Source: a virus
Lineage: Duplodnaviria > Caudoviricetes
Reading direction: 5' to 3' (one strand)
Length of the DNA: 64,000 nucleotides
IMG/VR virus record: IMGVR_UViG_3300035180_001680
Shown here: positions 1 through 41,970 of the stretch, in pieces
Numbering within the stretch: position 1 is the first letter of the stretch
How the letters are laid out: every line of letters begins with the position of its first letter
Made by a program: the position numbers and the translations under genes
Notes under the pieces: generated by a model
Database searches by the model: none
Seen by the model: only the letters and a program-made list of their open reading frames with translations
What the model was told of the DNA's origin: nothing

Positions 1-548
1 GCTTCAGGAAATCTTCCTTTGATGACAGAACGAGCATAATATGAAGCCCACTGTGGATCTCTTGCAATAGCAGGTTCTCCTTCAGTCCATCTTCCTTTGA
101 TGACATCACTAGCATACCAATAAGCCCAACGTGGATCTTTTGCAATAACAGATTCTGCTTCAGGAAATCTTCCTTTGATGACATCACGAGCATAATATGA
201 AGCCCACTCTGGATGTTTTGCAATAACAGATTCTGCTTCAGGAAATCTTCCTTTGATGACTTGTTGAGCATACACATAAGCCCAATCTGCTTTTTTTGCA
301 ATAACAGGTTCTGCTTCAGTAAATCTTCTTTCGATGACTTGTTGAGCATACCTATAAGCCCACCGTGGATCTTTTGCAACAACAGACTCTGCTTCTTTTT
401 TCTGTTGTGCATTTAATTTTCCACTCTTTAATGCTTCAAAAGCCATCTCAGGCGTGGCCATGTGTTTTTTATCATATCCATGCAATTTTTCTGGGTTTGA
501 ATGATATTTGTATAAATCCATTGCTTCGAATAGATCACGCAATTTCAT
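1..548 (-). CDS. 26-aa repeat protein, array member, 3' end outside window
   Basis: ATG at 548 overlaps the TGA of 545..1165; manual translation gives the MKLRDLFEAM leader and repeats, with no stop before base 1. Confidence 0.92.
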   Translation of the reverse strand, partial: MKLRDLFEAMDLYKYHSNPEKLHGYDKKHMATPEMAFEALKSGKLNAQQKKEAESVVAKDPRWAYRYAQQVIERRFTEAEPVIAKKADWAYVYAQQVIKGRFPEAESVIAKHPEWASYYARDVIKGRFPEAESVIAKDPRWAYWYASDVIKGRWTEGEPAIARDPQWASYYARSVIKGRFPE

Positions 549-1165
549 TTCGAAAGTCCTTTAATAAATTCGTTGTATTTTTTAGCCCACTCTGGATTTT
601 TTGCAATAGCAGGTTCTGCTTCAGGCCATCTTCCTTTGATGACATCACGAGCATACCAATAAGCATACTGTGGATCTTTTGCAATAGCAGGTTCTCCTTC
701 AGGCCATCTTCCTTTGATGCTATCATCAGCATACTCATAAGCCCATTCTGGATCTTTTGCAATAGCAGGTTCTGCTTCAGGCCATCTTCCTTTGATGACA
801 TTATGAGCATAATATGTGGCCCACTCTGGATGTTTTGCAATAACAGGTTCTGCTTTAGGCCATCTTCCTTCAATGATATCATCAGCATACCAATAAGCCC
901 ACTGTGGGTTTTTTGCAATAACAGGTTCTGCCTCAGGCCATCTTCCTTGGATGATAGAACGAGCATACCAACAAGCAAACTTTGGATCTGTTGCAACAAC
1001 AGACTCTGCTTCTTTTTTCTGTTGCGCATTCAGTTTTCCACTCTCTAGTGCCTGATATGCCATCTCAGGCGTAGCCATGTGCTTTTTATCATATCCATGT
1101 AACTTCTCTGGATTTGAGTGGTATTTGTATAAATCCATCGCTTCGAATAAGTCACGTAGTTTCAT
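545..1165 (-). CDS. 26-aa repeat protein, 206 aa, 5 repeats
   Basis: ORF track; shared leader, repeats and cap. Confidence 0.93.
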   Translation of the reverse strand: MKLRDLFEAMDLYKYHSNPEKLHGYDKKHMATPEMAYQALESGKLNAQQKKEAESVVATDPKFACWYARSIIQGRWPEAEPVIAKNPQWAYWYADDIIEGRWPKAEPVIAKHPEWATYYAHNVIKGRWPEAEPAIAKDPEWAYEYADDSIKGRWPEGEPAIAKDPQYAYWYARDVIKGRWPEAEPAIAKNPEWAKKYNEFIKGLSK

Positions 1166-1782
1166 TTTGAAAGTCCTTTGATGAATTCGTTGTATTTTTT
1201 AGCCCACTTTGGATCTTTTGCAATAACAGGTTCTCCTTCAGGCCATCTTCCTTTGATGACATAACGAGCATACTCATAAGCCCAACCTGGATCTTTTGCA
1301 ATAACAGGTTCTGCTTCAGTCCATCTTCCTTTGATGACATAACGAGCATACCAATAAGCCCACCTTGGGTCTTTTACAATAGCAGGTTCTGCCTTAGGCC
1401 ATCTTCCTTGGATGATAGAGCGAGCATATTCATAAGCCCAATCTGCTTTTTTTGCAATAACAGGTTCTGCTTCAGGCCATCTTCCTTTGATGACTTGTTG
1501 AGCATACACACAAGCCCAATCTGCTTTTTTTGCAATAACAGGTTCTGCTTCAGGAAATCTTCTTTCGATGACTTGTTGGGCGTACTCATAAGCCCACCGT
1601 GGATCTGTTGCAACAACAGATTCTGCTTCTTTCTTTTGTTGTGCATTTAATTTTCCACTCTTTAGTGCCTCATAAGCCATCTCAGGAGTAGCCATGTGTT
1701 TTTTATCATATCCATGTAACTTCTCTGGATTTGAATGATATTTGTATAAATCCATTGCTTCGAATAGATCACGTAATTTCAT
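1162..1782 (-). CDS. 26-aa repeat protein, 206 aa, 5 repeats
   Basis: ORF track; shared leader, repeats and cap. Confidence 0.93.
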   Translation of the reverse strand: MKLRDLFEAMDLYKYHSNPEKLHGYDKKHMATPEMAYEALKSGKLNAQQKKEAESVVATDPRWAYEYAQQVIERRFPEAEPVIAKKADWACVYAQQVIKGRWPEAEPVIAKKADWAYEYARSIIQGRWPKAEPAIVKDPRWAYWYARYVIKGRWTEAEPVIAKDPGWAYEYARYVIKGRWPEGEPVIAKDPKWAKKYNEFIKGLSK

Positions 1783-2399
1783 TTTGAAAGTCCTTTGATG
1801 TCTTGTTTATACCGTTTAGCATATGTTGGGTCTTTTGCAATAGCAGGTTCTCCTTCAATCCATCTTCCTTTGATGACATCACTAGCATACCAATAAGCCC
1901 AACGTGGATCTTTTGCAATAACAGATTCTGCTTCAGGAAATCTTCCTTTGATGACATCGCGAGCATACAACCAAGCCCATTCTGGATCTTTTACAATAAC
2001 AGATTCTGCTTCAGGAAATCTTCCTTTAATGACATCATGAGCGTACATATAAGCCGTCCGTGGATTTTTTGCAATAACAGATTCTGCTTCAGGAAATCTT
2101 CCTTTGATGAAATCACGAGCATACAAAAAAGCCCATTCTGGATCTTTTGCAATAACAGATTCTGCTTCAGGCCATCTTCCTTTGATGATATCATCAACAT
2201 ACCTATAAGCCCAACGTGGATCTTTTGCGATAACAGACTCTGCTTCTTTTTTCTGTTGTGCATTTAATTTTCCACCTTTTAATGCTCCAAAAGCCATCTC
2301 AGGCGTAGCCATGTGTTTTTTATCAAACCCATGCAATTTTTCTGGGTTTGAATGATATTTGTATAAATTCATCGCTTCGAATAAGTCGCGTAGTTTCAT
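1779..2399 (-). CDS. 26-aa repeat protein, 206 aa, 5 repeats
   Basis: ORF track; shared leader, repeats and cap. Confidence 0.93.
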   Translation of the reverse strand: MKLRDLFEAMNLYKYHSNPEKLHGFDKKHMATPEMAFGALKGGKLNAQQKKEAESVIAKDPRWAYRYVDDIIKGRWPEAESVIAKDPEWAFLYARDFIKGRFPEAESVIAKNPRTAYMYAHDVIKGRFPEAESVIVKDPEWAWLYARDVIKGRFPEAESVIAKDPRWAYWYASDVIKGRWIEGEPAIAKDPTYAKRYKQDIKGLSK

Positions 2400-3094
2400 T
2401 TCGAAAGTCCTTTGATGAATTCGTTGTATTTTTTAGCCCACCTTGGATCTTTTACAATAGCAGGTTCTCCTTTAGGAAATCTTCCGTTGATGACATCATG
2501 AGCATACCAATAAGCCGTCCGTGGATTTTTTGCAACAGCAGGTTCTCCCTTAGGAAATCTTTCCTCGATGACATCACGAGCATACCAATAAGCATACTCT
2601 GGATCTTTTGCAATAACAGGTTCTGCTTCAGGCCATCTTCCTTTGATGACATTACGAACATACTCATAAGCCCATTCTGGATCTTTTGCAATAACAGGTT
2701 CCGCTTTAGGCCACCTTCCCTTAATGACATCATGAGCATACCAATAAGCATACTCTGGATCTTTTGCAATAACAGGTTCCGCTTTAGGCCACCTTCCCTT
2801 AATGACATCATGAGCATACCAATAAGCATACTCTGGATCTTTTGTAATAACAGGTTCCGCTTTAGGAAATCTTCCTTCAATGACATCACGAGCATACCAA
2901 TAAGCCCACTTTATATCTGTTGCAACAACAGATTCTGCTTCTTTTTTCTGTGGTGTATTTAATTTTCCACTCTTTAGTGCCTCATATGCCATCTGTGGAG
3001 TAGCCATGTGCTTTTTATCATATCCATGCAATTTCTCTGGATTCGAGTGATATTTGTATAAATCCATCGCTTCGAATAGATCACGTAGTTTCAT
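2396..3094 (-). CDS. 26-aa repeat protein, 232 aa, 6 repeats
   Basis: ORF track; contains an exact 78-nt tandem duplication near 2700-2855. Confidence 0.93.
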   Translation of the reverse strand: MKLRDLFEAMDLYKYHSNPEKLHGYDKKHMATPQMAYEALKSGKLNTPQKKEAESVVATDIKWAYWYARDVIEGRFPKAEPVITKDPEYAYWYAHDVIKGRWPKAEPVIAKDPEYAYWYAHDVIKGRWPKAEPVIAKDPEWAYEYVRNVIKGRWPEAEPVIAKDPEYAYWYARDVIEERFPKGEPAVAKNPRTAYWYAHDVINGRFPKGEPAIVKDPRWAKKYNEFIKGLSK

Positions 3095-3789
3095 TTTGAA
3101 AGTTCTTTGATGTATTGTTTATAATATTTAGCATACTCTGGATCTTTTGCAATAACAGATTCTCCTTTAGGAAATCTTTCTTTGATGACATCATGAGCGT
3201 ACATATAAGCCGTCCGTGGATTTTTTGCAATAGCAGGTTCTCCTTCAGGCCATCTTCCTTTGATGACATCACGAGCATACCAAAAAGCATAATCTGGATC
3301 TTTTGCAATGACAGATTCTCCTTTAGGAAATCTTTCTTTAATGATATAACGAGCATACTCATAAGCCCAATCTGCTTTTTTTGCAACAGCAGGTTCTCCT
3401 TTAGGAAATCTTTCTTTGATGATATCATGAGCGTACATATAAGCCATCCGTGGATCTTTTGCAATAACAGATTCTGCTTCAGGAAATCTTCCTTTGATGA
3501 AATCACGAGCATACAAAAAAGCCCATTCTGGATCTTTTGCAATAGCAGGTTCTCCTTTAGGAAATCTTTCTTTGATGACATTACTGACATACCAATAAGC
3601 CCACTTTGTATCTGTTGCAACAACAGACTCTGCTTCTTTTTTCTGTTGTGCATTTAGTTTTCCACTCTTTAGTGCCTCATATGCCATCTCAGGCGTAGCC
3701 ATGTGCTTTTTATCATATCCATGCAATTTCTCTGGATTTGAGTGGTATTTGTATAAGTTCATCGCTTCGAATAAGTCACGTAATTTCAT
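3091..3789 (-). CDS. 26-aa repeat protein, 232 aa, 6 repeats
   Basis: ORF track; ends KELSK instead of KGLSK/KGISK. Confidence 0.93.
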   Translation of the reverse strand: MKLRDLFEAMNLYKYHSNPEKLHGYDKKHMATPEMAYEALKSGKLNAQQKKEAESVVATDTKWAYWYVSNVIKERFPKGEPAIAKDPEWAFLYARDFIKGRFPEAESVIAKDPRMAYMYAHDIIKERFPKGEPAVAKKADWAYEYARYIIKERFPKGESVIAKDPDYAFWYARDVIKGRWPEGEPAIAKNPRTAYMYAHDVIKERFPKGESVIAKDPEYAKYYKQYIKELSK

Positions 3790-4484
3790 TTTGAAAGTCC
3801 TTTGATGAATTCTTTGTAATTTTTAGCCAGGTGTGGATCTTTTGCAATGACAGATTCTGCTTCAGGAAATCTTTCCTTGATGACATCACGAGCATACCCA
3901 TAAGCATAATCTGGATCTTTTGCAATAGCAGGTTCTCCTTTGGGAAATCTTTCTTTAATGACATCACGAGCATAACTATAAGCCCACCGTGGATCTTTTG
4001 CAATAACAGGTTCTGCTTCAGGAAATCTTCCTTTGATGACAGAATGAGCATACCAATAAGCATACTCTGGATCTTTTGCAATAACAGGTTCTCCTTTAGG
4101 AAATCTTCCTTTGATGACATCACGAGCATAATATGAAGCCCACCGTGGATCTTTTGCAATAACAGACTCTGCTTCAGGAAAGCTTCCTTTGATGACATCA
4201 CGAGCATAATATGAAGCAAACTTTGGATCTGTTGCAACAACAGGTTCTCCTTCAGGAAATCTTCCTTTGATGACATCACGAGCATAATATGAAGCAAACT
4301 TTGGATCTGTTGCAACAACAGATTCTGCTTCTTTCTTTTGTTGTGCATTCAGTTTTCCACTCTCTAGTGCCTCATAGGCCATCTCAGGAGTAGCCATGTG
4401 TTTTTTATCATATCCATGTAACTTCTCTGGATTCGAGTGGTATTTGTATAAATCCATTGCTTCGAGTAGATCACGCAATTTCAT
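3786..4484 (-). CDS. 26-aa repeat protein, 232 aa, 6 repeats
   Basis: ORF track; LLEAM leader variant. Confidence 0.93.
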   Translation of the reverse strand: MKLRDLLEAMDLYKYHSNPEKLHGYDKKHMATPEMAYEALESGKLNAQQKKEAESVVATDPKFASYYARDVIKGRFPEGEPVVATDPKFASYYARDVIKGSFPEAESVIAKDPRWASYYARDVIKGRFPKGEPVIAKDPEYAYWYAHSVIKGRFPEAEPVIAKDPRWAYSYARDVIKERFPKGEPAIAKDPDYAYGYARDVIKERFPEAESVIAKDPHLAKNYKEFIKGLSK

Positions 4485-5179
4485 TTTGAAATTCCTTTAA
4501 TAAATTCTTTGTATTTTTTGGTCCATTCTGAATCTTTTGCAATAATAGGTTCTGCTTCAGGAAATCTTCCTTTGATGACATAACGAGCATACCAATAAGC
4601 CCAACCTGAATCTTTTGCAATAATAGGTTCTGCTTCAGGAAATCTTCCTTTGATGACATTACGAGCATACCAATAAGCCCACTGTGGGTTTTTTGCAATA
4701 ACCGGTTCTGCTTCAGACCATCTTCCTTTAGTGACATCACGAGCATAATCATAAGCCCATTTTGGATGTTTTGCAATAGCAGGTTCTGCTTCAGGCCATC
4801 TTCCTTTGATGACATCACGAGCGTACGTATAAGCCGACCGTGGATCTTTTGCAATGACAGATTCTCCTTTAGGAAATCTTTCTTTGATGACATTACAAGC
4901 ATACCAATAAGCCCATTCAGGATCTTTTGCAATAACAGGTTCTGCCTTAGGCCATCTTCCTTGGATGACATCACGAGCATAATATGAAGCAAACTCTGGA
5001 TCTGTTACAACAACAGATTCTGCTTCTTTCTTTTGTTGTGCATTTAATTTTCCACTCTTTAGTGCCTCATAAGCCATCTCAGGCGTAGCCATGTGTTTTT
5101 TATCAAACCCATGCAATTTTTCTGGGTTTGAATGATATTTGTATAAATCCATTGCTTCGAGTAGATCACGCAATTTCAT
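4481..5179 (-). CDS. 26-aa repeat protein, 232 aa, 6 repeats
   Basis: ORF track; LLEAM leader variant. Confidence 0.93.
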   Translation of the reverse strand: MKLRDLLEAMDLYKYHSNPEKLHGFDKKHMATPEMAYEALKSGKLNAQQKKEAESVVVTDPEFASYYARDVIQGRWPKAEPVIAKDPEWAYWYACNVIKERFPKGESVIAKDPRSAYTYARDVIKGRWPEAEPAIAKHPKWAYDYARDVTKGRWSEAEPVIAKNPQWAYWYARNVIKGRFPEAEPIIAKDSGWAYWYARYVIKGRFPEAEPIIAKDSEWTKKYKEFIKGISK

Positions 5180-5718
5180 TTTGAAATTCCTTTAATAAAT
5201 TCTTTGTATTTTTTGGTCCATTTTGGATGTTTTGCAATAGCAGGTTCTGCTTCAGGAAATCTTCCTTTGATGACAGAACGAGCATACCAACAAGCCCATT
5301 CTGGATCTTTTGCAATAGCAGGTTCTCCTTTAGGAAATCTTTCTTTGATGACACTACAAGCATACCAATAAGCCCATTCAGGATCTTTTGCAATAGCAGG
5401 TTCTCCTTTAGGAAATCTTCCTTTGATGACATCACGAGCATAACTATAAGCCCACTGTGGATCTGTTGCAATAACAGGTTCTGCCTTAGGCCATCTTCTT
5501 TGGATGACAGAACGAGCATACCAATAAGCAAACTCTGGATCTGTTACAATAACAGATTCTGCTTCTTTCTTTTGTTGTGCATTCAGTTTTCCGCTCTCTA
5601 GTGCCTGATATGCCATCTGTGGAGTAGCCATGTGCTTTTTATCAAACCCATGCAATTTCTCTGGATTCGAGTGATATTTGTATAAATCCATTGCTTCGAG
5701 TAAGTCACGTAATTTCAT
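5176..5718 (-). CDS. 26-aa repeat protein, 180 aa, 4 repeats (shortest)
   Basis: ORF track; LLEAM leader variant. Confidence 0.93.
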   Translation of the reverse strand: MKLRDLLEAMDLYKYHSNPEKLHGFDKKHMATPQMAYQALESGKLNAQQKKEAESVIVTDPEFAYWYARSVIQRRWPKAEPVIATDPQWAYSYARDVIKGRFPKGEPAIAKDPEWAYWYACSVIKERFPKGEPAIAKDPEWACWYARSVIKGRFPEAEPAIAKHPKWTKKYKEFIKGISK

Positions 5719-6335
5719 TTCGAAAGTCCTTTGATGAATTCGTTGTAATTTTTAGCCAGGTGTGGATCTTTTGCAATAGCAGATTCTGCTTCAGGAAATC
5801 TTCCTTTAATGACATAACGAGCATACGTATAAGCCCACTGTGGATCTTTTGCAATGACAGATTCTCCTTTAGGAAATCTTTCTTTGATGACTTGTTGAGC
5901 ATACACATAAGCCCAATCTGCTTTTTTTGCAATAGCAGGTTCTCCTTTAGGAAACCTTCCTTCGATAACATTACGAGCATACAAACAAGCCCACTCTGGA
6001 TCTTTTGCAATGACAGATTCTCCTTTAGGAAATCTTTCTCCAATGACATCTATAGCATACTCATAAGCCAACTCTGGATCTTTTGCAATAATAGGTTCTC
6101 CTTTAGGAAACCTTCCTTTGATGACATTACGAGCATACTCATAAGCAAACTTTGGATCTGTTGCAACAACAGATTCTGCTTCTTTTTTCTGTGGTACATT
6201 TAATTTTCCACTCTTTAGTGCCTCATAGGCCATCTCAGGAGTAGCCATGTGCTTTTTATCATATCCATGTAACTTCTCTGGATTTGAATGATATTTGTAT
6301 AAATCCATCGCTTCGAATAGATCACGTAATTTCAT
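5715..6335 (-). CDS. 26-aa repeat protein, 206 aa, 5 repeats
   Basis: ORF track; shared leader, repeats and cap. Confidence 0.93.
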   Translation of the reverse strand: MKLRDLFEAMDLYKYHSNPEKLHGYDKKHMATPEMAYEALKSGKLNVPQKKEAESVVATDPKFAYEYARNVIKGRFPKGEPIIAKDPELAYEYAIDVIGERFPKGESVIAKDPEWACLYARNVIEGRFPKGEPAIAKKADWAYVYAQQVIKERFPKGESVIAKDPQWAYTYARYVIKGRFPEAESAIAKDPHLAKNYNEFIKGLSK

Positions 6336-7645: not shown

Positions 7646-8262
7646 TTCGAAAGTCCTTTGATGTCTTGTTTATACCGTTTAGCATATGTTGGATCTTTTG
7701 CAATAACAGGTTCTGCTTCAGGAAATCTTCCTTTGATGACATCACGAGCATACCCATAAGCAAACTCTGGATCTTTTGCAATAACAGGTTCTGCTTTAGG
7801 CCATCTTCCTTTGATGACATCATGAGTATACCAATAAGCCGACTTTGGATATTTTGCAATAACAGATTCTGCTTCAGAAAATCTTCCTTTGATGACATCA
7901 CGAGCATAATATGAAGCCCAACCTGGATCTTTTGCAATAACAGGTTCTGCTTCAGGCCATCTTCCTTTGATGACATCACGAGCATACAAACAAGCCCACT
8001 GTGGATTTTTTGCAATAGCAGGTTCTCCTTTAGGAAATCTTCTTTCGGTGACATCACGAGCATAATAATGAGCCAACTCTGGAACTTTTGCAATAACAGA
8101 CTCTGCTTCTTTTTTCTGTTGTGCGTTTAATTTTCCACTCTTTAGTGCCTCATAGGCCATCTCAGGAGAAACCATGTGCCTTTTATCATATCCATGTAAC
8201 TTCTCTGGATTTGAGTGGTATTTGTATAAATTCATTGCTTCGAATAAGTCACGTAGTTTCAT
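7642..8262 (-). CDS. 26-aa repeat protein, 206 aa, 5 repeats
   Basis: ORF track; shared leader, repeats and cap. Confidence 0.93.
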   Translation of the reverse strand: MKLRDLFEAMNLYKYHSNPEKLHGYDKRHMVSPEMAYEALKSGKLNAQQKKEAESVIAKVPELAHYYARDVTERRFPKGEPAIAKNPQWACLYARDVIKGRWPEAEPVIAKDPGWASYYARDVIKGRFSEAESVIAKYPKSAYWYTHDVIKGRWPKAEPVIAKDPEFAYGYARDVIKGRFPEAEPVIAKDPTYAKRYKQDIKGLSK

Positions 8263-8879
8263 TTCGAAAGTCCTTTAATAAATTCGTTGTAATTTTTAGT
8301 CGACTGTAGGTTTTTTGCAATAGCAGGTTCTCCTTCAGGCCATCTTCCTTTGATGACATGACGAGCATAATATGAAGCCCACCGTGGAGCTTTTGCAATA
8401 GCAGGTTCTCCTTCAGGCCATCTTCCTTTGATGACATCACGAGCATACCCATAAGCATACTCTGGGTGTTTTGCAATGACAGATTCTCCTTTAGGAAATC
8501 TTTCTTCGATGACATAACGAGCATAATATGAAGCCCATTGTGGATCTTTTGCAATAGCAGGTTCTCCTTCAGGCCATCTTCCTTTAATGACACCATGAGC
8601 ATACCAATAAGCATACTCTGGGTGTTTTGCAATGATAGATTCTCCTTTAGGAAATCTTTCTTTGATGACTCGTTGAGCATACTCATAAGCCCACTGTGGA
8701 TCTGTTGCAACAACAGACTCTGCTTCTTTTTTCTGTTGTGCATTCAGTTTTCCACTCTCTAGTGCCTCATAAGCCATCTCAGGAGTAGCCATGTGCTTTT
8801 TATCAAACCCATGCAATTTTTCTGGGTTTGAATGATATTTGTATAAATCCATTGCTTCGAATAAGTCACGTAATTTCAT
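8259..8879 (-). CDS. 26-aa repeat protein, 206 aa, 5 repeats
   Basis: ORF track; shared leader, repeats and cap. Confidence 0.93.
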   Translation of the reverse strand: MKLRDLFEAMDLYKYHSNPEKLHGFDKKHMATPEMAYEALESGKLNAQQKKEAESVVATDPQWAYEYAQRVIKERFPKGESIIAKHPEYAYWYAHGVIKGRWPEGEPAIAKDPQWASYYARYVIEERFPKGESVIAKHPEYAYGYARDVIKGRWPEGEPAIAKAPRWASYYARHVIKGRWPEGEPAIAKNLQSTKNYNEFIKGLSK

Positions 8880-9730
8880 TTTGAAATTCCTTTAATAAAT
8901 TCGTTGTATTTTTTAGCCCACTTTGGATGTTTTGCAATAACAGATTCTGCTTCAGGAAATCTTCCCCTGATGACATTATGAGCATACCAATAAGCCCAAC
9001 GTGGATCTTTTGCAATAACAGGTTCTGCTTCAGGCCATCTTCCTTTAATGAAATCACGAGCATACGTATAAGCCCAATCTGCTTTTTTTGCAATAGCAGG
9101 TTCTGCTTCAGGCCATCTTCCTTTGATGACATCACGAGCATACAAAAAAGCCCGTTCTGGATCTTTTGCAATAGCAGGTTCTCCTTTAGGAAATCTTTCT
9201 TTGATGACAAAATGAGCGTAATATGAAGCCCACTGTGGATCTGTTGCAATAGCAGGTTCTCCTTTAGGCCATCTTCCTTTAATGACATCACGAGCATAAC
9301 TATAAGCATACCCTGGAACTTTTGCAATAGCAGGTTCTGCTTCAGGCCATCTTTCTTTGATGACATCACGAGCGTACCAATAAGCCGACTCTGGAACTTT
9401 TGCAAAGACAGATTCTCCTTCAGGCCATCTTCCTTTGATGACATCACGAGCATACCAATAAGCCAACTCTAGATCTTTTGCAATAACAGGTTCTCCTTTA
9501 GGAAACCTTCCTTTGATGAAATCACGAGCGTACTCATAAGCCCATCTTGGATCTTTTGCAACAACAGATTCTGCTTCTTTTTTCTGTTGTGCATTTAATT
9601 TTCCACCTTTTAATGCTTCAAAAGCCATCTCAGGAGTAGCCATGTGTTTTTTATCAAACCCATGCAATTTCTCTGGATTCGAGTGATATTTGTATAAATC
9701 CATTGCTTCGAATAAGTCACGTAGTTTCAT
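8876..9730 (-). CDS. 26-aa repeat protein, 284 aa, 8 repeats
   Basis: ORF track; shared leader, repeats and cap. Confidence 0.93.
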   Translation of the reverse strand: MKLRDLFEAMDLYKYHSNPEKLHGFDKKHMATPEMAFEALKGGKLNAQQKKEAESVVAKDPRWAYEYARDFIKGRFPKGEPVIAKDLELAYWYARDVIKGRWPEGESVFAKVPESAYWYARDVIKERWPEAEPAIAKVPGYAYSYARDVIKGRWPKGEPAIATDPQWASYYAHFVIKERFPKGEPAIAKDPERAFLYARDVIKGRWPEAEPAIAKKADWAYTYARDFIKGRWPEAEPVIAKDPRWAYWYAHNVIRGRFPEAESVIAKHPKWAKKYNEFIKGISK

Positions 9731-10815
9731 TTCGAAAGTCCTTTGATGAATTCGTTGTATTTTTTAGTCCATCTTGGATCTTTTGCAATAACAGATTCTG
9801 CTTCAGGCCATCTTCCTTTAATGACATGACGAGCATACCAATAAGCATACTCTGGATGTTTTACAATAGCAGGTTCTCCTTCAGACCATCTTCCTTTGAT
9901 GACATAACGAGCATACTCATAAGCCCACCGTGGGTTTTTTGCAATAACAGGTTCTCCTTCAGGCCATCTTCCTTTGATGACATAATGAGCATACACACAA
10001 GCCCACTGTGGATCTTTTGCAATAACAGGTTCTCCTTTAGGAAACCTTCCTTTGATGACATTGAGAGCATACTCATAAGCCAACTCTGGATCTTTTGCAA
10101 TAACAGGTTCTCCTTTAGGAAACCTTCCTTTGATGACATTGAGAGCATACGCATAAGCCCAATATGCTTTTTTTGCAATAGCAGGTTCTCCTTCAGGCCA
10201 TCTTCCTTTAATGAAATCACGAGCATACATATAAGCCCAACCTGGATCTTTTGCAATAACATGTTCTACTTCAGGCCATCTTCCTTTGATGACATAACGA
10301 GCATACTCACAAGCCCAATGTGGATCTTTTGCAATAGCAGGTTCTCCTTTAGGAAACCTTCCTTTAATGAAATCATGAGCATACGTATAAGCCCAATCTG
10401 CTTTTTTTGCAATAGCGGGTTCTCCTTCAGGCCATCTTCCTTTGATGAAATTACGAGCATACGCATAAGCCCACTTTGGATCTTTTGCAATAACAGGTTC
10501 TCCTTTAGTAAACCTTCCTTTGATGACATCTGTAGCATACTCATAAGCCAACTCTGGAACTTTTGCAATGACAGATTCTGCTTTAGGCCATCTTCCTTTG
10601 ATGACATTACGAGCATACCTATAAGCCCACGTTGTATCTGTTGCAACAACAGATTCTGCTTCTTTCTTTTGTTGTGCATTTAATTTTCCACTCTTTAGTG
10701 CCTCATAGGCCATCTCAGGAGTAGCCATGTGTTTTTTATCAAACCCATGCAATTTTTCTGGATTCGAGTGGTATTTGTATAAATCCATTGCTTCGAATAA
10801 GTCACGTAGTTTCAT
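9727..10815 (-). CDS. 26-aa repeat protein, 362 aa, 11 repeats (longest)
   Basis: ORF track; shared leader, repeats and cap. Confidence 0.93.
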   Translation of the reverse strand: MKLRDLFEAMDLYKYHSNPEKLHGFDKKHMATPEMAYEALKSGKLNAQQKKEAESVVATDTTWAYRYARNVIKGRWPKAESVIAKVPELAYEYATDVIKGRFTKGEPVIAKDPKWAYAYARNFIKGRWPEGEPAIAKKADWAYTYAHDFIKGRFPKGEPAIAKDPHWACEYARYVIKGRWPEVEHVIAKDPGWAYMYARDFIKGRWPEGEPAIAKKAYWAYAYALNVIKGRFPKGEPVIAKDPELAYEYALNVIKGRFPKGEPVIAKDPQWACVYAHYVIKGRWPEGEPVIAKNPRWAYEYARYVIKGRWSEGEPAIVKHPEYAYWYARHVIKGRWPEAESVIAKDPRWTKKYNEFIKGLSK

Positions 10816-11585
10816 TTCGAAAGTCCTTTGATGAATTCGTTGTATTTTTTAGCCCACTGTGGATCTTTTGCAATAGCAGGTTCTCCTTCAGGCCATCTTC
10901 CTTTGATGACATCACGAACATACAAAAAAGCCAACTCTGGATTTTTTGCAATAACAGGTTCTGCTTCATGCCATCTTCCTTTGATGACATAACGAGCATA
11001 CGCATAAGCATACTCTGGAACTTTTGCAATAGCAGGTTCTCCTTTAGGAAACCTTCCTTTGATAACATTATGAGCATACAAATAAGCCAACTCTGGATCT
11101 TTTGCAAAGACATATTCTCCTTTAGGAAATCTTTCTTTAATGACATCTTCAGCATACTCATAAGCCCACTGTGGATTTTTTGCAATAGCAGGTTCTCCTT
11201 CAGGCCATCTTCCTTTGATGACACCACGAGCATACCAATAAGCATACTTTGGATCTTTTGCAATAGCAGGTTCTCCTTCAGGCCATCTTCCTTTGATGAC
11301 ATAATGATACTCATAAGCCCACTTTGGATCTTTTGCAATAACAGGTTCTGCTTCAGGCCATCTTCCTTTGATGACATTACAAGCATACTCATAAGCCCAC
11401 CGTGGATCTGTTGCAACAACAGATTCTGCTTCTTTCTTTTGTTGTGCATTCAGTTTTCCACTCTCTAGTGCCCCATAGGCCATCTCAGGCGTAGCCATGT
11501 GTTTTTTATCATATCCATGCAATTTTTCTGGATTTGAGTGGTATTTGTATAAATCCATTGCTTCAAATAAGTCACGTAATTTCAT
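10812..11585 (-). CDS. 26-aa repeat protein, 257 aa, 7 repeats (one lacks a codon)
   Basis: ORF track; AYEY-HYVIKG lacks the conserved Ala (3-nt deletion at about 11306/11307). Confidence 0.92.
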   Translation of the reverse strand: MKLRDLFEAMDLYKYHSNPEKLHGYDKKHMATPEMAYGALESGKLNAQQKKEAESVVATDPRWAYEYACNVIKGRWPEAEPVIAKDPKWAYEYHYVIKGRWPEGEPAIAKDPKYAYWYARGVIKGRWPEGEPAIAKNPQWAYEYAEDVIKERFPKGEYVFAKDPELAYLYAHNVIKGRFPKGEPAIAKVPEYAYAYARYVIKGRWHEAEPVIAKNPELAFLYVRDVIKGRWPEGEPAIAKDPQWAKKYNEFIKGLSK

Positions 11586-12358
11586 TTTGAAATTCCTTTG
11601 ATGAATTGGTTATACTGTTTAGCATATGTTGGGTCTTTTGCAATAACAGGTTCTGCTTCAGGAAATCTTCCTTTGATGACATCACGAGCATACTCATAAG
11701 CCCACCGTGGATCTTTTGCAATAGCAGGTTCTCCTTCAGGCCATCTTCCTTTAATGACAGAACGAGCATAGTATAAAGCCCAATCTGCTTTTTTTGCAAT
11801 AACAGGTTCTCCTTCAGACCATCTTCCTTTGATGACATCACGAGCATAACCATAAGCCCAATCTGGATCTTTTGCAATAGCAGGTTCTCCTTTAGGCCAT
11901 CTTCCTTTGATGATATTACGAGCATACTCATAAGCCCACTGTGGACCTGTTGCAATAGCAGGTTCTCCTTTAGGCCATCTTCCTTTGATGACATCACGAG
12001 CATACCAATAAGCCAACCGTGGATCTTTTGCAATAACAGGTTCTGCTTCAGGCCATCTTCCTTTGATGGCATCGCGAGCATACCAATAAGCCAACTCTGG
12101 ATCTTTTGCAATAACAGGTTCTGCTTCAGGCCATCTTCTTTTGATGACAGAACGAGCATACCAATGAGCATACTCTGGATCTGTTACAATAACAGATTCT
12201 GCTTCTTTCTTTTGTTGTGCGTTTAATTTTCTACTCTTTAGTGCTTTAAAAGCCATCTCAGGCGTAGCCATGTGCTTTTTATCAAACCCATGCAATTTTT
12301 CTGGGTTTGAATGATATTTGTATAAATCCATCGCTTCGAATAAGTCACGTAGTTTCAT
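11582..12358 (-). CDS. 26-aa repeat protein, 258 aa, 7 repeats
   Basis: ORF track; shared leader, repeats and cap. Confidence 0.93.
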   Translation of the reverse strand: MKLRDLFEAMDLYKYHSNPEKLHGFDKKHMATPEMAFKALKSRKLNAQQKKEAESVIVTDPEYAHWYARSVIKRRWPEAEPVIAKDPELAYWYARDAIKGRWPEAEPVIAKDPRLAYWYARDVIKGRWPKGEPAIATGPQWAYEYARNIIKGRWPKGEPAIAKDPDWAYGYARDVIKGRWSEGEPVIAKKADWALYYARSVIKGRWPEGEPAIAKDPRWAYEYARDVIKGRFPEAEPVIAKDPTYAKQYNQFIKGISK

Positions 12359-13209
12359 TTTGAAATTCCTTTGATGTATTGTTTATAATATTTAGCATAC
12401 TCTGGATGTTTTGCAATAACAGGTTCTCCTTCAGGAAATCTTCCTTTGATGACATCACGAGCATACCAATAAGCATACTCTGGATGTTTTGCAATAACAG
12501 GTTCTCCTTCAGGAAATCTTCCTTTGATGACATCACGAGCATACCAATATGCTGACCCTGACTCTTTTGCAATAGCAGGTTCTCCTTCAGTCCATCTTCC
12601 TTTAATTACAGAACGAGCATAATGTAAAGCCCACCGTGGATCTTTTGCAATAGCAGGTTCTGCTCCAGGCCATCTTCCTTTGATGACATAACAAGCATAC
12701 TCATAAGCCCACTCTAGATCTTTTACAATAGCAGGTTCTCCTTCAGGCCATCTTCCTTCGACGACATCGTGAGCGTACATATAAGCCATCCGTGGATCTT
12801 TTGCAATAACAGGTTCTGCTTTAGGCCATCTTCCCTTGATGACATCACGAGCATAAATATAAGCCCACTTTGGATCTTTTGCAATAACAGGTTCTGTTTT
12901 AGGCCATCTTCCTTTGATGACATAACGAGCATACCTATAAGCCCACTCTGGAACTTTTGCAAAGACAGATTCTCCTTCAGGCCATCTTCCTTTGATGACA
13001 TCACGAGCATAAATGTAAACCAACTCTGGATCTGTTGCAACAACAGATTCTGCTTCTTTTCTCTGTTGTGCGTTTAATTTTCCACCTTTTAATGCTTCAA
13101 AAGCCATCTCAGGAGTAGCCATGTGTTTTTTATCAAACCCATGCAATTTTTTTGGATTCGAGTGATATTTGTATAAATCCATTGCTTCGAATAAGTCGCG
13201 TAGTTTCAT
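12355..13209 (-). CDS. 26-aa repeat protein, 284 aa, 8 repeats
   Basis: ORF track; shared leader, repeats and cap. Confidence 0.93.
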   Translation of the reverse strand: MKLRDLFEAMDLYKYHSNPKKLHGFDKKHMATPEMAFEALKGGKLNAQQRKEAESVVATDPELVYIYARDVIKGRWPEGESVFAKVPEWAYRYARYVIKGRWPKTEPVIAKDPKWAYIYARDVIKGRWPKAEPVIAKDPRMAYMYAHDVVEGRWPEGEPAIVKDLEWAYEYACYVIKGRWPGAEPAIAKDPRWALHYARSVIKGRWTEGEPAIAKESGSAYWYARDVIKGRFPEGEPVIAKHPEYAYWYARDVIKGRFPEGEPVIAKHPEYAKYYKQYIKGISK

Positions 13210-13904
13210 TTCGAAAGTCCTTTGATGAATTCGTTGTATTTGTTAGCCCATTCTGGATCTTTTGCAATAGCAGGTTCTCCTTCAGGCCATCTTCCTTTAA
13301 TGACATGACGAGCATACACATAAGCCCACTTTGGATCTTTTGCAATAGCAGGTTCTGCTTCAGGAAATCTTTCTTTAATGACATAATAAGCATAATATGA
13401 AGCCGACTGTAGATCTTTTACAATAGCAGGTTCTCCTTCAGGCCATCTTCCTTTAATGACATGACGAGCATACAACCAAGCCCATTCTGGATCTTTTGCA
13501 ATAACAGGTTCTGCTTTAGTCCATCTTCCTTTAATGACATGATGAGCATACCAACAAGCCCACTCTGGATCTTTTGCAATAACAGGTTCTGCTTTAGGCC
13601 ATCTTCCTTTGATGACATAACGAGCATAACTATAAGCCCACTCTGAATCTTCTGCAATAACAGGTTCTACTTTAGGCCATCTTCCTTTGATGACATAACG
13701 AGCATACCTATAAGCCCATCGTGGATCTGTTGCAATAACAGACTCCGCTTCTTTTTTCTGTTGTGCGTTTAGTTTTCCACTCTTTAGTGCCTCATAGGCC
13801 ATCTCAAGAGTAATTATGTGCTTTTTATCATATCCAGGTAACGTCTCTGGATTCGAGTGATATTTGTATAAGTCCATTGCTTCAAATAAGTCACGTAATT
13901 TCAT
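13206..13904 (-). CDS. 26-aa repeat protein, 232 aa, 6 repeats
   Basis: ORF track; PETLPGYDKKHI leader variant. Confidence 0.93.
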   Translation of the reverse strand: MKLRDLFEAMDLYKYHSNPETLPGYDKKHIITLEMAYEALKSGKLNAQQKKEAESVIATDPRWAYRYARYVIKGRWPKVEPVIAEDSEWAYSYARYVIKGRWPKAEPVIAKDPEWACWYAHHVIKGRWTKAEPVIAKDPEWAWLYARHVIKGRWPEGEPAIVKDLQSASYYAYYVIKERFPEAEPAIAKDPKWAYVYARHVIKGRWPEGEPAIAKDPEWANKYNEFIKGLSK

Positions 13905-14521
13905 TTTGAAAGTCCTTTAATAAATTCGTTGTATTTGTTAGCCCACTGTGGATCTTTTGCAATAGCAGGTTCTCCTTTAGGAAACCTTCCTTTGATGACA
14001 TGACGAGCATACGCATAAGCCCAATATGCTTTTTTTGCAATAGCAGGTTCTGCTTCAGGCCATCTTCCTTTAATGACATAACGAGCATACCCACAAGCAT
14101 ACTCTGGATCTTTTGCAATAGCAGGTTCTCCTTTAGGAAACCTTCCTTTGATGACATTGAGAGCATACGCATAAGCCCAATATGCTTTTTTTGCAATAGC
14201 AGGTTCTGCTTCAGGCCATCTTCCTTTGATGACATCACGAGCATACGCATGAACCCACAGTAGATCTTTTGCAATAACAGGTTCCGCTTTAGGCCATCTT
14301 CCCTTAATGACATAATGAGCATACCAATAAGCCCACTGTGGATCTGTTGCAACAACAGACTCTGCTTCTTTTTTCTGTTGTGCGTTTAATTTTCCACCTT
14401 TTAATGCTCTAAAAGCCATCTCAGGCGTAGCTATGTGTTTTTTATCATATCCATGTAACTTCTCTGGGTTTGAATGATATTTGTATAAATCCATTGCTTC
14501 GAATAAGTCGCGCAATTTCAT
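13901..14521 (-). CDS. 26-aa repeat protein, 206 aa, 5 repeats (first gene of array)
   Basis: ORF track; starts 6 nt after the stop of 14528..16108. Confidence 0.93.
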   Translation of the reverse strand: MKLRDLFEAMDLYKYHSNPEKLHGYDKKHIATPEMAFRALKGGKLNAQQKKEAESVVATDPQWAYWYAHYVIKGRWPKAEPVIAKDLLWVHAYARDVIKGRWPEAEPAIAKKAYWAYAYALNVIKGRFPKGEPAIAKDPEYACGYARYVIKGRWPEAEPAIAKKAYWAYAYARHVIKGRFPKGEPAIAKDPQWANKYNEFIKGLSK

Positions 14522-14527
14522 TTTGAT

Positions 14528-16108: not shown

Positions 16109-16132
16109 GATAAACCCTCATAATATAAGATG

Positions 16133-16140
16133 TATTTATA
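16133..16140 (-). promoter_or_regulatory. T4-type late promoter TATAAATA heading the 526-aa gene and the array
   Basis: Exact TATAAATA on the minus strand, 24 nt upstream of the ATG at 16108; same motif precedes capsid and tail genes; gp55 homolog in window. Confidence 0.75.
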
Positions 16141-16925: not shown

Positions 16926-17065
16926 CGTTTTATTTGTAATCTGTTTGAGATTTTAAGAAATCAACATATAATTTGGGTGGTGCTACTTCTTTCCAAATTT
17001 CAGAACAATTGGTTGTTTAAGTTGTTGTAATTTGCTTGTTGATATAATCGTTTAACTTTCCTTAA

Positions 17066-41822: not shown

Positions 41823-41931
41823 ATTTGCTGTAGGCAACTCACCTCATCATTATGGTGTTAAGTTATCTTCAAAAATCTGGCTTTTTTTTAATATTTAAAC
41901 CCCGTTACATTCAACACTGTTTCCTCAAATG

Positions 41932-41939: not shown

Positions 41940-41970
41940 TATTATAATATCCCTCAAAGAGGAGGTTAGT

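What the first reader, a model, noticed from the sequence alone, without database searches (positions are those of the whole stretch)
545..14350. Repeat variability is confined to positions 5/6, 8/9, 12/13: one helical face, like a natural alphaRep/DARPin library
Seen: consensus A-K-D-P-x-x-A-x-x-Y-A-x-x-V-I-K-G-R-[WF]-P-[EK]-[AG]-E-[PS]-[VA]-I. P4, A7, Y10, A11, I15, R18, P20 and E23 are nearly fixed. Position 5 (E/Q/R/K/G/H/D), 6 (W/Y/F/L/S/T/M), 8 (Y/S/F/C/L), 9 (W/E/Y/A/L/M/R/N/G/T/V), 12 (R/H/Q/D/C/L) and 13 (D/N/Y/S/H/Q/G) vary widely. Equivalent sites also vary in the leader (AYEA/AFGA/ACGA/AFKA/AFRA/AYQA) and cap (WAKKY/YAKRY/LAKNY/STKNY). The i, i+3/4, i+7/8 spacing maps to one face of an alpha-helix. 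Knowledge: engineered HEAT-like and ankyrin binders randomise such a face. Inference: stacked repeats form a solenoid with an aromatic-rich, variable binding surface for proteins or, in TALE/PPR fashion, nucleic acids.
Basis: partly seen in the sequence, partly recalled or inferred. Interest (0 to 1): 0.88.

Follow-up and report, generated by a model that had tools for sequence, protein, structure and literature searches.

The report
Phage array of hypervariable solenoid proteins
A giant bacteriophage from sediment carries at least 22 back-to-back genes for small helical-repeat proteins that keep an identical scaffold but differ almost everywhere on one exposed stripe, which looks like a natural library of binding proteins, possibly packed into the virus head and injected into the host.

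Summary
Window 1-14521 (minus strand) holds 21 paralogous genes, one of them frameshifted and one cut by the window edge. Together they carry 123 complete 26-residue repeats. "Confined" is overstated, because positions 3, 19, 21, 22, 24 and 25 also vary, mostly between two states.

An AlphaFold model (pLDDT 93) is a two-helix solenoid. The variable residues fall on one face of helix A (helical moment p = 0.002). Replacement diversity there is about 3 times the synonymous diversity of the repeats. The 58-residue leader of the same genes has a ratio of 0.10.

New context:
- The family is phage-specific, large (about 5,300 clusters) and has no Pfam model.
- Relatives fuse the repeats to a "GTKWCT" head domain, which here is the gene just upstream. 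Its PA5oct homologue is a virion protein by mass spectrometry.
- Other relatives are polyproteins whose units join at a conserved x-x-Glu-Ala site. Every array gene starts with that site (MKLRDLFE-A).
- A T4-type late promoter motif precedes the operon.

Best reading: a diversified binder repertoire, perhaps capsid-targeted and ejected like T4 internal proteins. The ligand is unknown. Other first-stage notes of this scan describe the same stretch.

The parts
3..548 (-). Array gene cut by the window edge: leader, 4 full repeats and a partial fifth. The array continues beyond base 1.
545..1165 (-). Array gene, 206 aa, 5 repeats. This is the protein that was modelled.
1162..1782 (-). Array gene, 206 aa, 5 repeats
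1779..2399 (-). Array gene, 206 aa, 5 repeats
2396..3094 (-). Array gene, 232 aa, 6 repeats (two adjacent repeats have identical DNA)
3091..3789 (-). Array gene, 232 aa, 6 repeats (one repeat has the same DNA as a repeat of gene 1779-2399)
3786..4484 (-). Array gene, 232 aa, 6 repeats
4481..5179 (-). Array gene, 232 aa, 6 repeats
5176..5718 (-). Array gene, 180 aa, 4 repeats
5715..6335 (-). Array gene, 206 aa, 5 repeats
6332..6952 (-). Array gene, 206 aa, 5 repeats
6949..7645 (-). Array gene broken by a frameshift near 7140 (2 nt missing in a TATATA run). Leader and 4 repeats are in one frame; 2-3 repeats and the cap are in another.
7642..8262 (-). Array gene, 206 aa, 5 repeats
8259..8879 (-). 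Array gene, 206 aa, 5 repeats
8876..9730 (-). Array gene, 284 aa, 8 repeats
9727..10815 (-). Array gene, 362 aa, 11 repeats (the longest)
10812..11585 (-). Array gene, 257 aa, 7 repeats, one of them 25 aa long (in-frame loss of one codon)
11582..12358 (-). Array gene, 258 aa, 7 repeats
12355..13209 (-). Array gene, 284 aa, 8 repeats
13206..13904 (-). Array gene, 232 aa, 6 repeats
13901..14521 (-). First gene of the array, 206 aa, 5 repeats. It starts 6 nt after the stop of the head-domain gene.
14528..16108 (-). Head-domain gene, 526 aa. Residues 1-276 are a low-complexity part plus an unknown part. Residues 277-526 are the alpha+beta 'GTKWCT' head domain and end in a cap-like motif without repeats. 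In relatives this domain is fused to the repeats.
16133..16140 (-). TATAAATA, a T4-type late-promoter-like motif 25 nt upstream of the head-gene ATG. None lies inside the array.

Best explanation
The stretch is most of a late operon of a jumbo T4-like phage. A 'GTKWCT' head-domain gene comes first, followed by at least 21 (reportedly 27) translationally coupled paralogues of an uncharacterised, phage-specific alpha-solenoid family.

Each protein has four parts: an 8-9-residue N-terminal peptide (MKLRDLFE-A), an N-cap, 4-11 repeats of 26 residues (a 12-residue helix A and a short helix B) and a C-cap.

Shown:
- The scaffold residues are fixed.
- Their codons are more uniform than those of the leader.
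- Six residues per repeat on the outward face of helix A are hypervariable with an excess of replacement change, and the matching cap residues also vary (the replacement excess was measured on the repeats only).

Inferred: this stripe is a ligand-binding surface kept diverse by selection, so the array is a repertoire of about 27 different binders on one scaffold.

Inferred with less confidence (about 40%): the N-terminal peptide is a capsid-targeting propeptide removed by the phage's head maturation protease after Glu8. On that reading the binders are packed into the head and ejected into the host, like T4 internal proteins, to bind variable host factors such as defence proteins. They would act together with, or docked to, the head-domain protein.
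For: Anatomy and variability. Of the 123 repeats, 111 have distinct six-residue codes.

Fold: pLDDT 93.2 and pTM 0.84, with two helices per repeat. The variable face has helical periodicity, p = 0.002, and the same face is the most variable in 674 repeats from 76 IMG/VR loci.

Selection:
- Codon-position diversity in the repeats is 0.18/0.21/0.15. In the leader it is 0.08/0.05/0.20.
- pN at the six sites over repeat-wide pS is 3.05 (2.68-3.48). Leader omega is 0.10.

The repeats behave as an exchangeable binding module:
- They are fused to the head domain in many phage contigs.
- By structure, the same head is joined in other phage proteins to LRR, ankyrin, LRV, DUF4116 or WG-beta repeats.
- A PcfJ-like motif lies upstream of the variable region in some DGR targets (PMC5758913).

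Link to the virion:
- TATAAATA lies 25 nt before the head gene, as it does before the tail sheath, tail tube and adaptor genes.
- A gp55-like late sigma factor and a head maturation protease are in the window.
- The PA5oct homologue of the head (34% identity, E 6e-32) is annotated as a structural protein by ESI-MS/MS.

Propeptide idea:
- Polyprotein relatives join their units at [V/T]-x-E-[A/S], with E in 40 of 43 junctions. This is collinear with L-[F/L]-E-A at residues 6-9 of all 21 array genes.
- Codons 2-9 carry six synonymous polymorphisms and one replacement.
- Among 39 other ORFs in the window, only the major head protein and the scaffold-like gene before it have such a motif in the first 20 residues.
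- Eighteen of 19 head domains have L/I-x-E with an invariant Glu near the N-terminus.
- T4 and giant-phage prohead proteases cut after Glu, and T4 internal proteins share only a 10-residue targeting peptide (PMC9026906, PMC5694885, PMC3012670).

Docking of an array protein on the head domain has weak support only. ipSAE was 0.49 against a best control of 0.02. The mark was reached by 58 of 80 solved complexes and 2 of 110 mismatches, but scores of 0.60 or under were seen in only 7 of those 80 solved complexes and in both mismatches that passed. The runs share at least 43% of their contacts and partner pLDDT is at least 84. My own alignments were used.
Against: - No ligand is known and no binding was measured.
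- Solvent exposure was inferred from a helical wheel, because the model's coordinates could not be read.
- Pairwise pN/pS among repeats that recombine is a crude statistic. With the sites' own pS the ratio is only 1.4-1.7, and the low repeat-wide pS may reflect homogenisation.
- The propeptide and capsid idea rests on short motifs, a promoter consensus and a homologue's proteomics. None of the array proteins themselves has been seen in a virion.
- Most family members start directly at M-N-L-Y without the extra peptide.
- The conserved Glu-Ala could simply be part of the N-cap fold.
- The head gene of this window lacks an N-terminal motif. Its L-S-E-G lies at residue 277.
- The array comes from a metagenome assembly. 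Public short contigs cover it only in pieces of 100-180 nt, so gene order and leader-to-repeat joins are unverified.
Confidence: 0.6

Rival explanations
1. External virion adhesins. The head domain anchors to the particle, and the repeat proteins, fused to it or docked through their leader, display variable surfaces that bind cell-surface or matrix molecules. This would give a multi-specific receptor-binding repertoire.
For: - A conserved N-terminal module with a variable C-terminal binding module is the usual build of phage receptor-binding proteins (general knowledge).
- The head homologue is a virion protein in PA5oct, and its neighbours are also virion proteins.
- The operon has a late promoter motif.
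- The stripe is rich in aromatic residues (14% W+Y+F), which suits sugar binding.
- PcfJ-like heads occur in DGR targets.
- Head-to-repeat docking has weak support: 0.49 against a best control of 0.02, with the calibration counts (58 of 80 solved complexes, 2 of 110 mismatches) and caveats given under the best explanation.
Against: - The Glu-Ala junction shared with polyproteins, the scaffold-like protein and the major head protein points to processing inside the prohead, not on the outside.
- Small monomeric helical solenoids are not a usual receptor-binding fold.
- No tail or baseplate gene lies next to the array.
Confidence: 0.15
2. Modular nucleic-acid readers. Each repeat would contact one or a few bases through positions 5, 9, 12 and 13, as in PUF, PPR or TALE proteins. 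The paralogues would then recognise different DNA or RNA sequences.
For: - The proteins are basic (mean pI 9.0, net charge up to +19).
- The variable residues are rich in E, R, Q, K, N, D, H, S and Y plus aromatics, as at base-contacting sites.
- Pumilio domains appear among the weak structural matches (Z 5.0 and 4.0).
- If packed in the capsid, the proteins would lie against DNA.
Against: - There is no specific similarity to any nucleic-acid-binding repeat. The structural matches are generic (best Z 6.8 to HEAT proteins).
- The same head domain carries LRR and ankyrin repeats in other phages, and these are typically protein binders.
- Four to eleven repeats with 111 different codes show no recurrent 'code' classes.
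- The weak Pfam HTH_35 score is summed over repeats and no single stretch passes.
Confidence: 0.12
3. No specific binding. The proteins are bulk structural or packing material (inner-body, scaffold or DNA-condensing proteins), and the exposed face varies only because it is unconstrained.
For: - Exposed helix faces vary in most helical proteins.
- The proteins are basic, as T4 internal proteins are.
- The same positions are variable across the whole family.
Against: - Relaxed constraint gives pN/pS near 1, not 3.
- Scaffold codons are homogenised while the six codons stay different in 111 of 123 repeats. This calls for selection that preserves the differences.
- Keeping about 27 intact paralogues, with only one frameshift, is costly for filler.
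Confidence: 0.08
4. Artefact or targeted mutagenesis. Either the array is a mis-assembly of population variants of a few genes, or the variation is written by a diversity-generating retroelement.
For: - The source is a metagenome. In four public runs the array is covered only by 100-180-nt contigs, many of which fit several places.
- PcfJ-like heads occur in some DGR targets.
Against: - Of 463 contig pieces from the likely source run, 419 are at least 99% identical to the window.
- All but one gene are intact, with regular 4-nt overlaps.
- Small arrays and polyproteins of the same family occur in many unrelated contigs.
- Variable codons change at T, G and C as well as A, and at all three codon positions, unlike adenine-specific DGR mutagenesis.
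- No reverse transcriptase was seen among the window ORFs that were scanned.
Confidence: 0.05

Closest known systems
Natural HEAT-like repeats behind the alphaRep library, and DARPins
   Same: - Short two-helix repeats stack into a solenoid.
- Pairs of adjacent variable positions spaced by a helical turn (alphaRep 18/19, 22/23, 26) form one continuous face. The N-cap takes part in that face too (PMC3754942).
   Different: - The repeat is 26 residues, not 31 or 33.
- There is no sequence match to PBS_HEAT or ankyrin models.
- The diversity here is natural and sits in about 27 tandem genes of one phage, not in a synthetic library.
T4 internal proteins (IPI, IPII, IPIII) and giant-phage ejection-protein paralogues (such as SPN3US gp53/gp54)
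   Same: - The proteins differ widely but share a short conserved N-terminal peptide ending in hydrophobic-x-Glu.
- They are basic.
- The genome encodes a T4-type head maturation protease and uses late expression.
- The proposed role is to counter variable host factors (PMC3012670, PMC9026906, PMC5694885).
   Different: - There is no sequence or fold relation to the T4 internal proteins.
- Packaging and cleavage are not shown for this family.
- The diversity here lies on one scaffold, not in unrelated folds.
- The copy number is far higher.
TALE, PUF and PPR modular repeat proteins
   Same: - The repeats are near-identical, with variation concentrated in a few residues per repeat.
- DNA-level homogenisation of the scaffold is marked, as in TALE genes.
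   Different: - Six variable positions per 26-residue repeat, not two or three.
- No recognisable code classes.
- Only generic structural likeness (Pumilio Z 5.0).
- Nucleic-acid binding is untested.
PcfJ-like / DUF4116 / LRV-type phage proteins with a 'GTKWCT' head
   Same: - The head domain of the upstream gene groups with viral clusters in which about a third of members carry PF14284.
- By structure it also groups with phage proteins that join the head to DUF4116, LRV, LRR, ankyrin or WG repeats.
- AlphaFold DB matches include DUF4116 and LRV proteins.
   Different: - No head sequence reaches any Pfam model.
- The 26-residue repeat matches neither DUF4116 nor LRV models.
- The function of all these heads is unknown.

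Membership tests
Alpha-solenoid (HEAT/ARM-like) repeat proteins | Tandem two-helix repeats stacked into an elongated superhelix | tested here: met
   The AlphaFold model has pLDDT 93.2, with alternating 12-residue and 5-7-residue helices in each 26-aa unit. The best PDB matches are HEAT/ARM-type solenoids at Z 6.8-5.0, which is not discriminating.
Pfam HEAT / PBS_HEAT / ankyrin / TPR / LRV / DUF4116 sequence families | Score above the family's gathering threshold | tested here: not met
   hmmscan of two array proteins lists none of these at E <= 0.1. NCBIfam gives nothing. PHROGs gives only weak hits to families of unknown function.
Pfam HTH_35 (PF13693) | A domain-level match to the winged-helix model | tested here: not met
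   The whole-protein score of 37.9 bits is the sum of fragments of about 19 residues over the repeats. No single stretch passes.
TALE/PUF/PPR-type nucleic-acid readers | Specific sequence or fold similarity and a recurrent residue code | tested here: inconclusive
   Pumilio domains match at Z 5.0 and 4.0 among generic solenoids. There are 111 distinct codes in 123 repeats with no classes. Binding was not testable.
Repeat families under diversifying selection on a binding face | Replacement diversity above synonymous diversity at surface sites, with the opposite pattern elsewhere in the same genes | tested here: met
   pN at the six sites over repeat-wide pS is 3.05 (2.68-3.48), or 1.38-1.71 with their own pS. 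The leader ratio is 0.10. Codon-position diversity is reversed between repeats and leader. These are pairwise counts without a recombination-aware model.
Capsid-targeted, protease-processed internal (ejection) proteins of T4-like and giant phages | Short conserved N-terminal propeptide ending in hydrophobic-x-Glu | tested here: met
   L-[F/L]-E-A sits at residues 6-9 in 21 of 21 genes and is under purifying selection. The same junction occurs in polyprotein relatives, with E in 40 of 43. Only the major head protein and the scaffold-like gene share the motif among 39 other ORFs.
Capsid-targeted, protease-processed internal (ejection) proteins of T4-like and giant phages | Presence in the virion and cleavage by the prohead protease | not testable with these tools
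   The only evidence is indirect. The PA5oct homologue of the neighbouring head domain is a virion protein by ESI-MS/MS, and a late promoter motif precedes the operon.
PcfJ-like (PF14284) domain, for the upstream head gene | Match to the Pfam model | tested here: not met
   There was no hit for 19 head sequences at E <= 1 or for further heads. The only leads are that 32-33% of members of the nearest Atlas clusters carry PF14284, and weak Foldseek rows at E 0.04-0.08.
Diversity-generating retroelement target | Variation restricted to adenine positions of a template repeat, with a reverse transcriptase nearby | tested here: not met
   Variable codons change at T, G and C and at all codon positions. 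No reverse transcriptase was found among the annotated window ORFs. The rest of the genome is not held.

The most novel reading that the evidence does not exclude
Jumbo phages carry a natural combinatorial library of binders on one scaffold. The binders are encoded either as tandem gene arrays or as polyproteins. They would be loaded into the prohead through a short targeting peptide, cut into single units by the head maturation protease at x-x-Glu-Ala junctions, and injected with the DNA. Inside the host they would neutralise a wide, variable set of defence or other host proteins. This would be a phage counterpart of an innate 'antibody-like' repertoire, built on a previously undescribed 26-residue solenoid family.
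Probability: 0.3. Interest if true: 0.9.

Novelty: new variant of a known kind. Interest (0 to 1): 0.72.

Why it matters
If the reading holds, this is a large phage-specific repeat family that has no Pfam or NCBIfam model and matches only weakly to PHROGs families of unknown function. It comprises about 5,300 clusters at 50% identity. In it, nature has done what the alphaRep and DARPin engineers do: hold a small, stable scaffold fixed and vary one face.

Three consequences follow:
- It would offer a compact natural scaffold (26-residue repeats with defined caps) and a ready-made map of tolerated substitutions for binder design.
- The links to a virion-associated head domain, to polyprotein forms and to a propeptide-like N-terminus make a concrete question testable. 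Do jumbo phages inject whole repertoires of binders, and what host factors do they hit?
- The targets of such binders could point to unknown defence systems or host-takeover nodes in uncultured sediment bacteria.

Tried and rejected
- Own genome: none is held for this window.
- Cultured relatives of the array: megablast of the neighbouring 9.6 kb and tblastn of an array protein against 50,697 phage records gave no match at E 1e-5. Only the head domain finds cultured relatives.
- Close relative's contig: the look-up of encoding contigs for the closest homologue (P0001) found nothing on record.
- Repeat model, structure searches: Foldseek against the PDB gave nothing at E <= 0.001. The wide VIA search gave only generic solenoids.
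- Head model, structure searches: no PDB match. The GNAT-like and polo-box-like rows at Z 4-5.8 cover only a beta-sheet part and sit within the noise range the tool states.
- Head versus the different head of L066: the profile comparison showed no relation (probability 0.8%).
- N-terminal part of the head gene (residues 110-276): no usable Atlas hit.
- Laying public runs on the array to get strain-level orthologues: only short contigs that fit several places, so it could not be used for site-wise tests or to confirm gene order.
- Expression: no RNA holder is listed among the runs.
- Literature: searches for DUF4116, PcfJ and repeat arrays in jumbo phages found no description of this family. 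No supplementary tables of the PA5oct paper are held.
- Sigma-70 promoter and terminator scans of 1-17100 were at or below shuffle expectation.
- Tree-based site models were not attempted. A 78-nt alignment with evident cassette exchange gives no reliable tree.

Full report
**What is in the sequence**

Tandem Repeats Finder reports a 78-nt period from base 1 to 14368. All of it is coding on the minus strand. There are 21 open reading frames of 180-362 codons, and each start overlaps the previous stop by ATGA. One gene (6949-7645) is split by a 2-nt loss in a TATATA run. One gene (3-548) is cut by the window edge.

Every product has the same plan:
- a 58-residue leader,
- 4-11 repeats of 26 residues,
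- an 18-residue cap.

I counted 123 complete repeats. An earlier first-stage note of this scan puts the whole array at 27 genes over 18.3 kb, reaching beyond the window. I could not check this.

**The observation**

Reader positions 9 (3.25 bits), 5 (2.64), 13 (2.25), 12 (1.94), 6 (1.84) and 8 (1.52) are the variable ones. Y10 and E23 never change. A7, A11, I15 and R18 are fixed in 117-122 of 123 repeats.

"Confined" is too strong in three respects:
- Position 3 has 1.65 bits.
- Positions 19, 21, 22, 24 and 25 each switch between two states that look like a few ancestral repeat types.
- Positions 6 and 8 are mostly W and Y.

The truly free sites are therefore 5, 9, 12 and 13, flanked by an aromatic border. 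Of the 123 repeats, 111 carry a different six-residue combination. Repeats within a gene are no more alike than repeats of different genes (13.6 against 14.0 differences per 78 nt). A few repeats have identical DNA in non-adjacent genes, which points to cassette exchange. Variable residues of the leader (34, 37, 38, 41, 42) and of the cap fall on the same register. Residues 33-58 of the leader are thus a degenerate N-cap repeat.

**Structure**

The 206-residue protein was modelled with AlphaFold2 on an alignment of 8 paralogues and 10 metagenomic homologues. The model has pLDDT 93.2 and pTM 0.84. Each repeat gives a 12-residue helix A (reader positions 4-15) and a 5-7-residue helix B (positions 20-26), stacked as a solenoid.

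The coordinates are not exposed to the scripting box, so I could not compute accessibility. On a helical wheel the variable positions occupy 80-240 degrees, and P4, A7, Y10, A11, V14 and I15 occupy the opposite arc. The entropy moment peaks at 90-100 degrees per residue, and 0.2% of permutations reach it. The same face is the most variable in 674 distinct repeats taken from 76 IMG/VR loci.

Structure searches give only generic solenoid likeness:
- Symplekin and PP2A-A HEAT repeats at Z 6.8-6.2, and Pumilio at Z 5.0.
- Nothing by Foldseek in the PDB.
- Weak DUF4116, LRV and HEAT rows in AlphaFold DB.
- Clusters of unnamed Uroviricota proteins at TM 0.74-0.79 in the ESM Atlas.

**Selection**

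Within the same genes the two parts behave in opposite ways.

| Part | Diversity at codon positions 1/2/3 | pS | pN | Ratio |
|---|---|---|---|---|
| Leader (58 codons) | 0.08 / 0.05 / 0.20 | 0.40 | 0.041 | 0.10 |
| All 26 repeat codons | 0.18 / 0.21 / 0.15 | 0.129 | 0.193 | 1.49 |
| Six hypervariable codons | 0.39 / 0.45 / 0.29 | 0.286 (own sites) | 0.395 | 3.05 against repeat-wide pS |

- The bootstrap range for the 3.05 is 2.68-3.48. With the sites' own pS the ratio is 1.38, or 1.71 for positions 5, 9, 12 and 13 alone.
- The other 20 repeat codons sit near 1.
- Many scaffold codons are almost monomorphic. For example, one codon fills 119, 116 and 117 of 123 repeats at positions 7, 11 and 26.

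So the scaffold is homogenised more than the leader, and the stripe is kept different. This fits diversifying selection acting against concerted evolution.

The statistic is pairwise (Nei-Gojobori) over recombining paralogous repeats, so it is indicative and not a formal site test. The changes are not adenine-specific, so a diversity-generating retroelement is not indicated.

**Where it sits**

The window is part of a jumbo T4-like myovirus:
- A family-B polymerase with an intein is 46% identical to that of Xanthomonas phages XacN1 and Xoo-sp13.
- Portal, head maturation protease, major head protein, adaptor, tail sheath, tail tube and terminase genes are present.
- A gp55-like late sigma factor is also present.

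The DNA is found in sediment and microbial-mat metagenomes. The motif TATAAATA, the T4 late-promoter consensus (my knowledge), occurs 12 times against 5.7 expected. Six of the 12 copies lie 22-32 nt upstream of an ATG and two more about 80 nt upstream. These include the adaptor, tail sheath and both tail-tube genes, and the 526-codon gene that precedes the array by 6 nt. None lies inside the array. The 526-codon gene and the array therefore look like one late operon.

**The family and its partner domain**

The family is large and unnamed. There are 1,762 hits in the 90%-identity collection and 5,308 cluster representatives at E <= 1e-3, of which 3,244 are at E <= 1e-10. No Pfam or NCBIfam model matches.

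In IMG/VR it occurs on many contigs, including ones of 190-480 kb, usually as one to six adjacent genes. Three architectures appear:
- The leader-plus-repeats form seen here.
- Repeats fused behind a head domain of about 235 residues with an invariant W-C-T in a G-T-K-W-C-T motif.
- Giant polyproteins of 800-2,250 residues (P0121, P0122, P0123, P0129, P0130, P0132) that concatenate whole [leader, repeats, cap] units. P0141 (1,438 residues) and P0145 (1,501 residues) concatenate [head + repeats] units instead.

The window's upstream gene carries the head domain at residues 277-526 and ends with a cap-like motif but no repeats. Head-only genes next to repeat-only genes recur in L001, L005 and L045.

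The head model (pLDDT 87) has no convincing solved relative. In the Atlas its nearest clusters are viral, and about a third of their members carry PF14284 (PcfJ). By structure the same head is joined in other phage proteins to WG-beta, DUF4116, LRV, LRR or ankyrin repeats. No head reaches the Pfam model itself, so "PcfJ-like" is a lead only.

A constant head with interchangeable repeat modules argues that the repeats are a generic ligand-binding part. This is the main reason I favour a protein or other macromolecular ligand over a nucleic-acid code. The basic charge of the proteins (mean pI 9.0) keeps the nucleic-acid option open.

A joint fold of the head domain with an array protein gave weak support only. 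The score was 0.49 against a best control of 0.02. The tool's mark was reached by 58 of 80 solved complexes and 2 of 110 mismatches. Scores of 0.60 or under were seen in only 7 of those 80 solved complexes and in both passing mismatches. The runs agree in at least 43% of contacts and partner pLDDT is at least 84. My own alignments were used.

**A link to the virion**

The head domain has cultured relatives. The closest is PA5oct EST35_0205, at 34% identity to the window's head over 240 residues (E 6e-32). It is annotated "structural protein, ESI-MS/MS", as are four of its neighbours. The PA5oct paper reports 93 virion-associated proteins found by that method (PMC7318152).

In the polyproteins every unit is preceded by [V/T]-[T/D/K]-E-[A/S] and then [M/I/L]-[D/N]-L. 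Glu is present in 40 of 43 junctions and a small residue follows in 39 of 43. The array genes are collinear with this. Their first nine residues, M-K-L-R-D-L-[F/L]-E-A, precede the M-D-L-Y that starts most homologues.

These nine codons are translated and constrained: six of them show synonymous variants and only one shows a replacement. Among 39 other ORFs of the window, a [LIVF]-x-E-[AGST] motif within the first 20 residues occurs in only two. Those two are the major head protein and the 310-residue acidic protein just before it, which carries 13 such sites and looks like the scaffold. They are the expected substrates of a T4-type head protease (my knowledge). Eighteen of 19 head domains also carry L/I-x-E with an invariant Glu near their N-terminus.

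The published record supports the analogy:
- T4 and giant-phage prohead proteases all cut after Glu within minimal motifs (A-X-E, S/A/G-X-E, S/A/G/T-X-E).
- T4 internal proteins are targeted to the prohead by a 10-residue N-terminal peptide, with residues 8 and 10 needed for processing.
- The internal proteins are otherwise a diverse set of anti-restriction proteins that share only that peptide (PMC5694885, PMC9026906, PMC3012670).

**Reading**

I therefore read the array as a repertoire of binders on one scaffold (about 0.6-0.7). With less confidence (about 0.4) I read it as capsid-targeted, protease-trimmed proteins that are ejected into the host, acting with the head-domain protein.

Steps shown:
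- the gene anatomy,
- the solenoid prediction,
- the helical-face variability,
- the replacement excess,
- the fusion and polyprotein relatives,
- the promoter motif,
- the junction motif,
- the virion status of a head homologue.

Steps inferred:
- exposure of the stripe,
- binding,
- packaging,
- cleavage,
- ejection,
- the target.

Rivals are external adhesins anchored by the head, nucleic-acid readers, unconstrained filler proteins, and assembly or mutagenesis artefacts. They are set out with their tests in the rival section.

**Caveats**

- The assembly of the array cannot be verified from public short contigs. In four runs it is covered by pieces of 100-180 nt that often fit several places. 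However, 419 of 463 pieces from the likely source run are at least 99% identical to the window.
- Chimeric joins at the near-identical leaders would not affect the per-repeat statistics. They could affect gene order and repeat counts per gene.

**Novelty**

Hypervariable faces on repeat scaffolds and tandem paralogue expansions are known kinds of thing. The following appear to be new:
- this 26-residue family,
- its size and phage specificity,
- the extreme expansion in one phage,
- the array-to-polyprotein correspondence,
- the propeptide-like junction that ties the family to head maturation.

I found no paper describing any of these.

Noticed in passing
17066-20860 (-): The family-B DNA polymerase is interrupted by an intein with a LAGLIDADG homing-endonuclease domain (Intein_splicing 2.7e-14, LAGLIDADG_3 2.2e-6).
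   Followed up: no
41929-43593 (+): An HNH/homing-endonuclease gene sits between the major head protein and the head-tail adaptor genes. A TATAAATA motif overlaps its start (41932-41939).
   Followed up: no
16530-16925 (-): A small gene of the 'active DUF488-N3' subclade (PF22751, 4.8e-8) lies between the polymerase and the head-domain gene. Its function is unknown.
   Followed up: no
About ten leader/first-repeat boundaries, e.g. 1601-1623, 4303-4325, 6154-6176, 11404-11426, 13028-13050: The codons for E-S-V-V-A-T-D-P form a perfect 10-bp inverted repeat (a hairpin on either strand). It recurs at the same place in about ten genes. It could be a recombination or RNA-structure hotspot, or chance.
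   Followed up: no
6949-7645 (-), near 7140: One array gene is frameshifted by a 2-nt loss in a TATATA run. This could be a pseudogene, an assembly error or slippage.
   Followed up: partly
P0121, P0122, P0123, P0129 (polyprotein relatives): The linkers between units are often runs of 4-8 lysines before T-T-E-A, which would be poly(A) tracts if the lysines are AAA codons (the DNA was not looked at). Such runs are prone to transcriptional or translational slippage and might regulate how many units are made.
   Followed up: no
39462-40394 (+): A 310-residue acidic helical protein lies just before the major head protein. It has 13 [LIV]-x-E-[AS] sites and an N-terminus (M-N-E-L-L-K-K-L-L-E-A) like that of the array proteins. 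It is probably the scaffold/core protein and a protease substrate.
   Followed up: partly
14528-16108 (-), residues 1-276: The head-domain gene has a 276-residue N-terminal extension (K/E/S/T-rich, followed by an unknown domain) that is absent from homologues. An internal M-K-K-I-T-L-L-Q-F-L-L-S-E-G at about residue 267 looks like the ancestral N-terminus.
   Followed up: partly
Window 1129 and 8255 (leader regions), runs X1-X4: Public contigs match a leader for about 100 nt and then continue into unrelated sequence; the loose ends reported at these two places are up to 255 nt (table 7), and one 1,996-nt contig from run X3 lies on 1129-1233 only (table 8). Leader-bearing genes may therefore also lie elsewhere in this phage or in related ones.
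   Followed up: no
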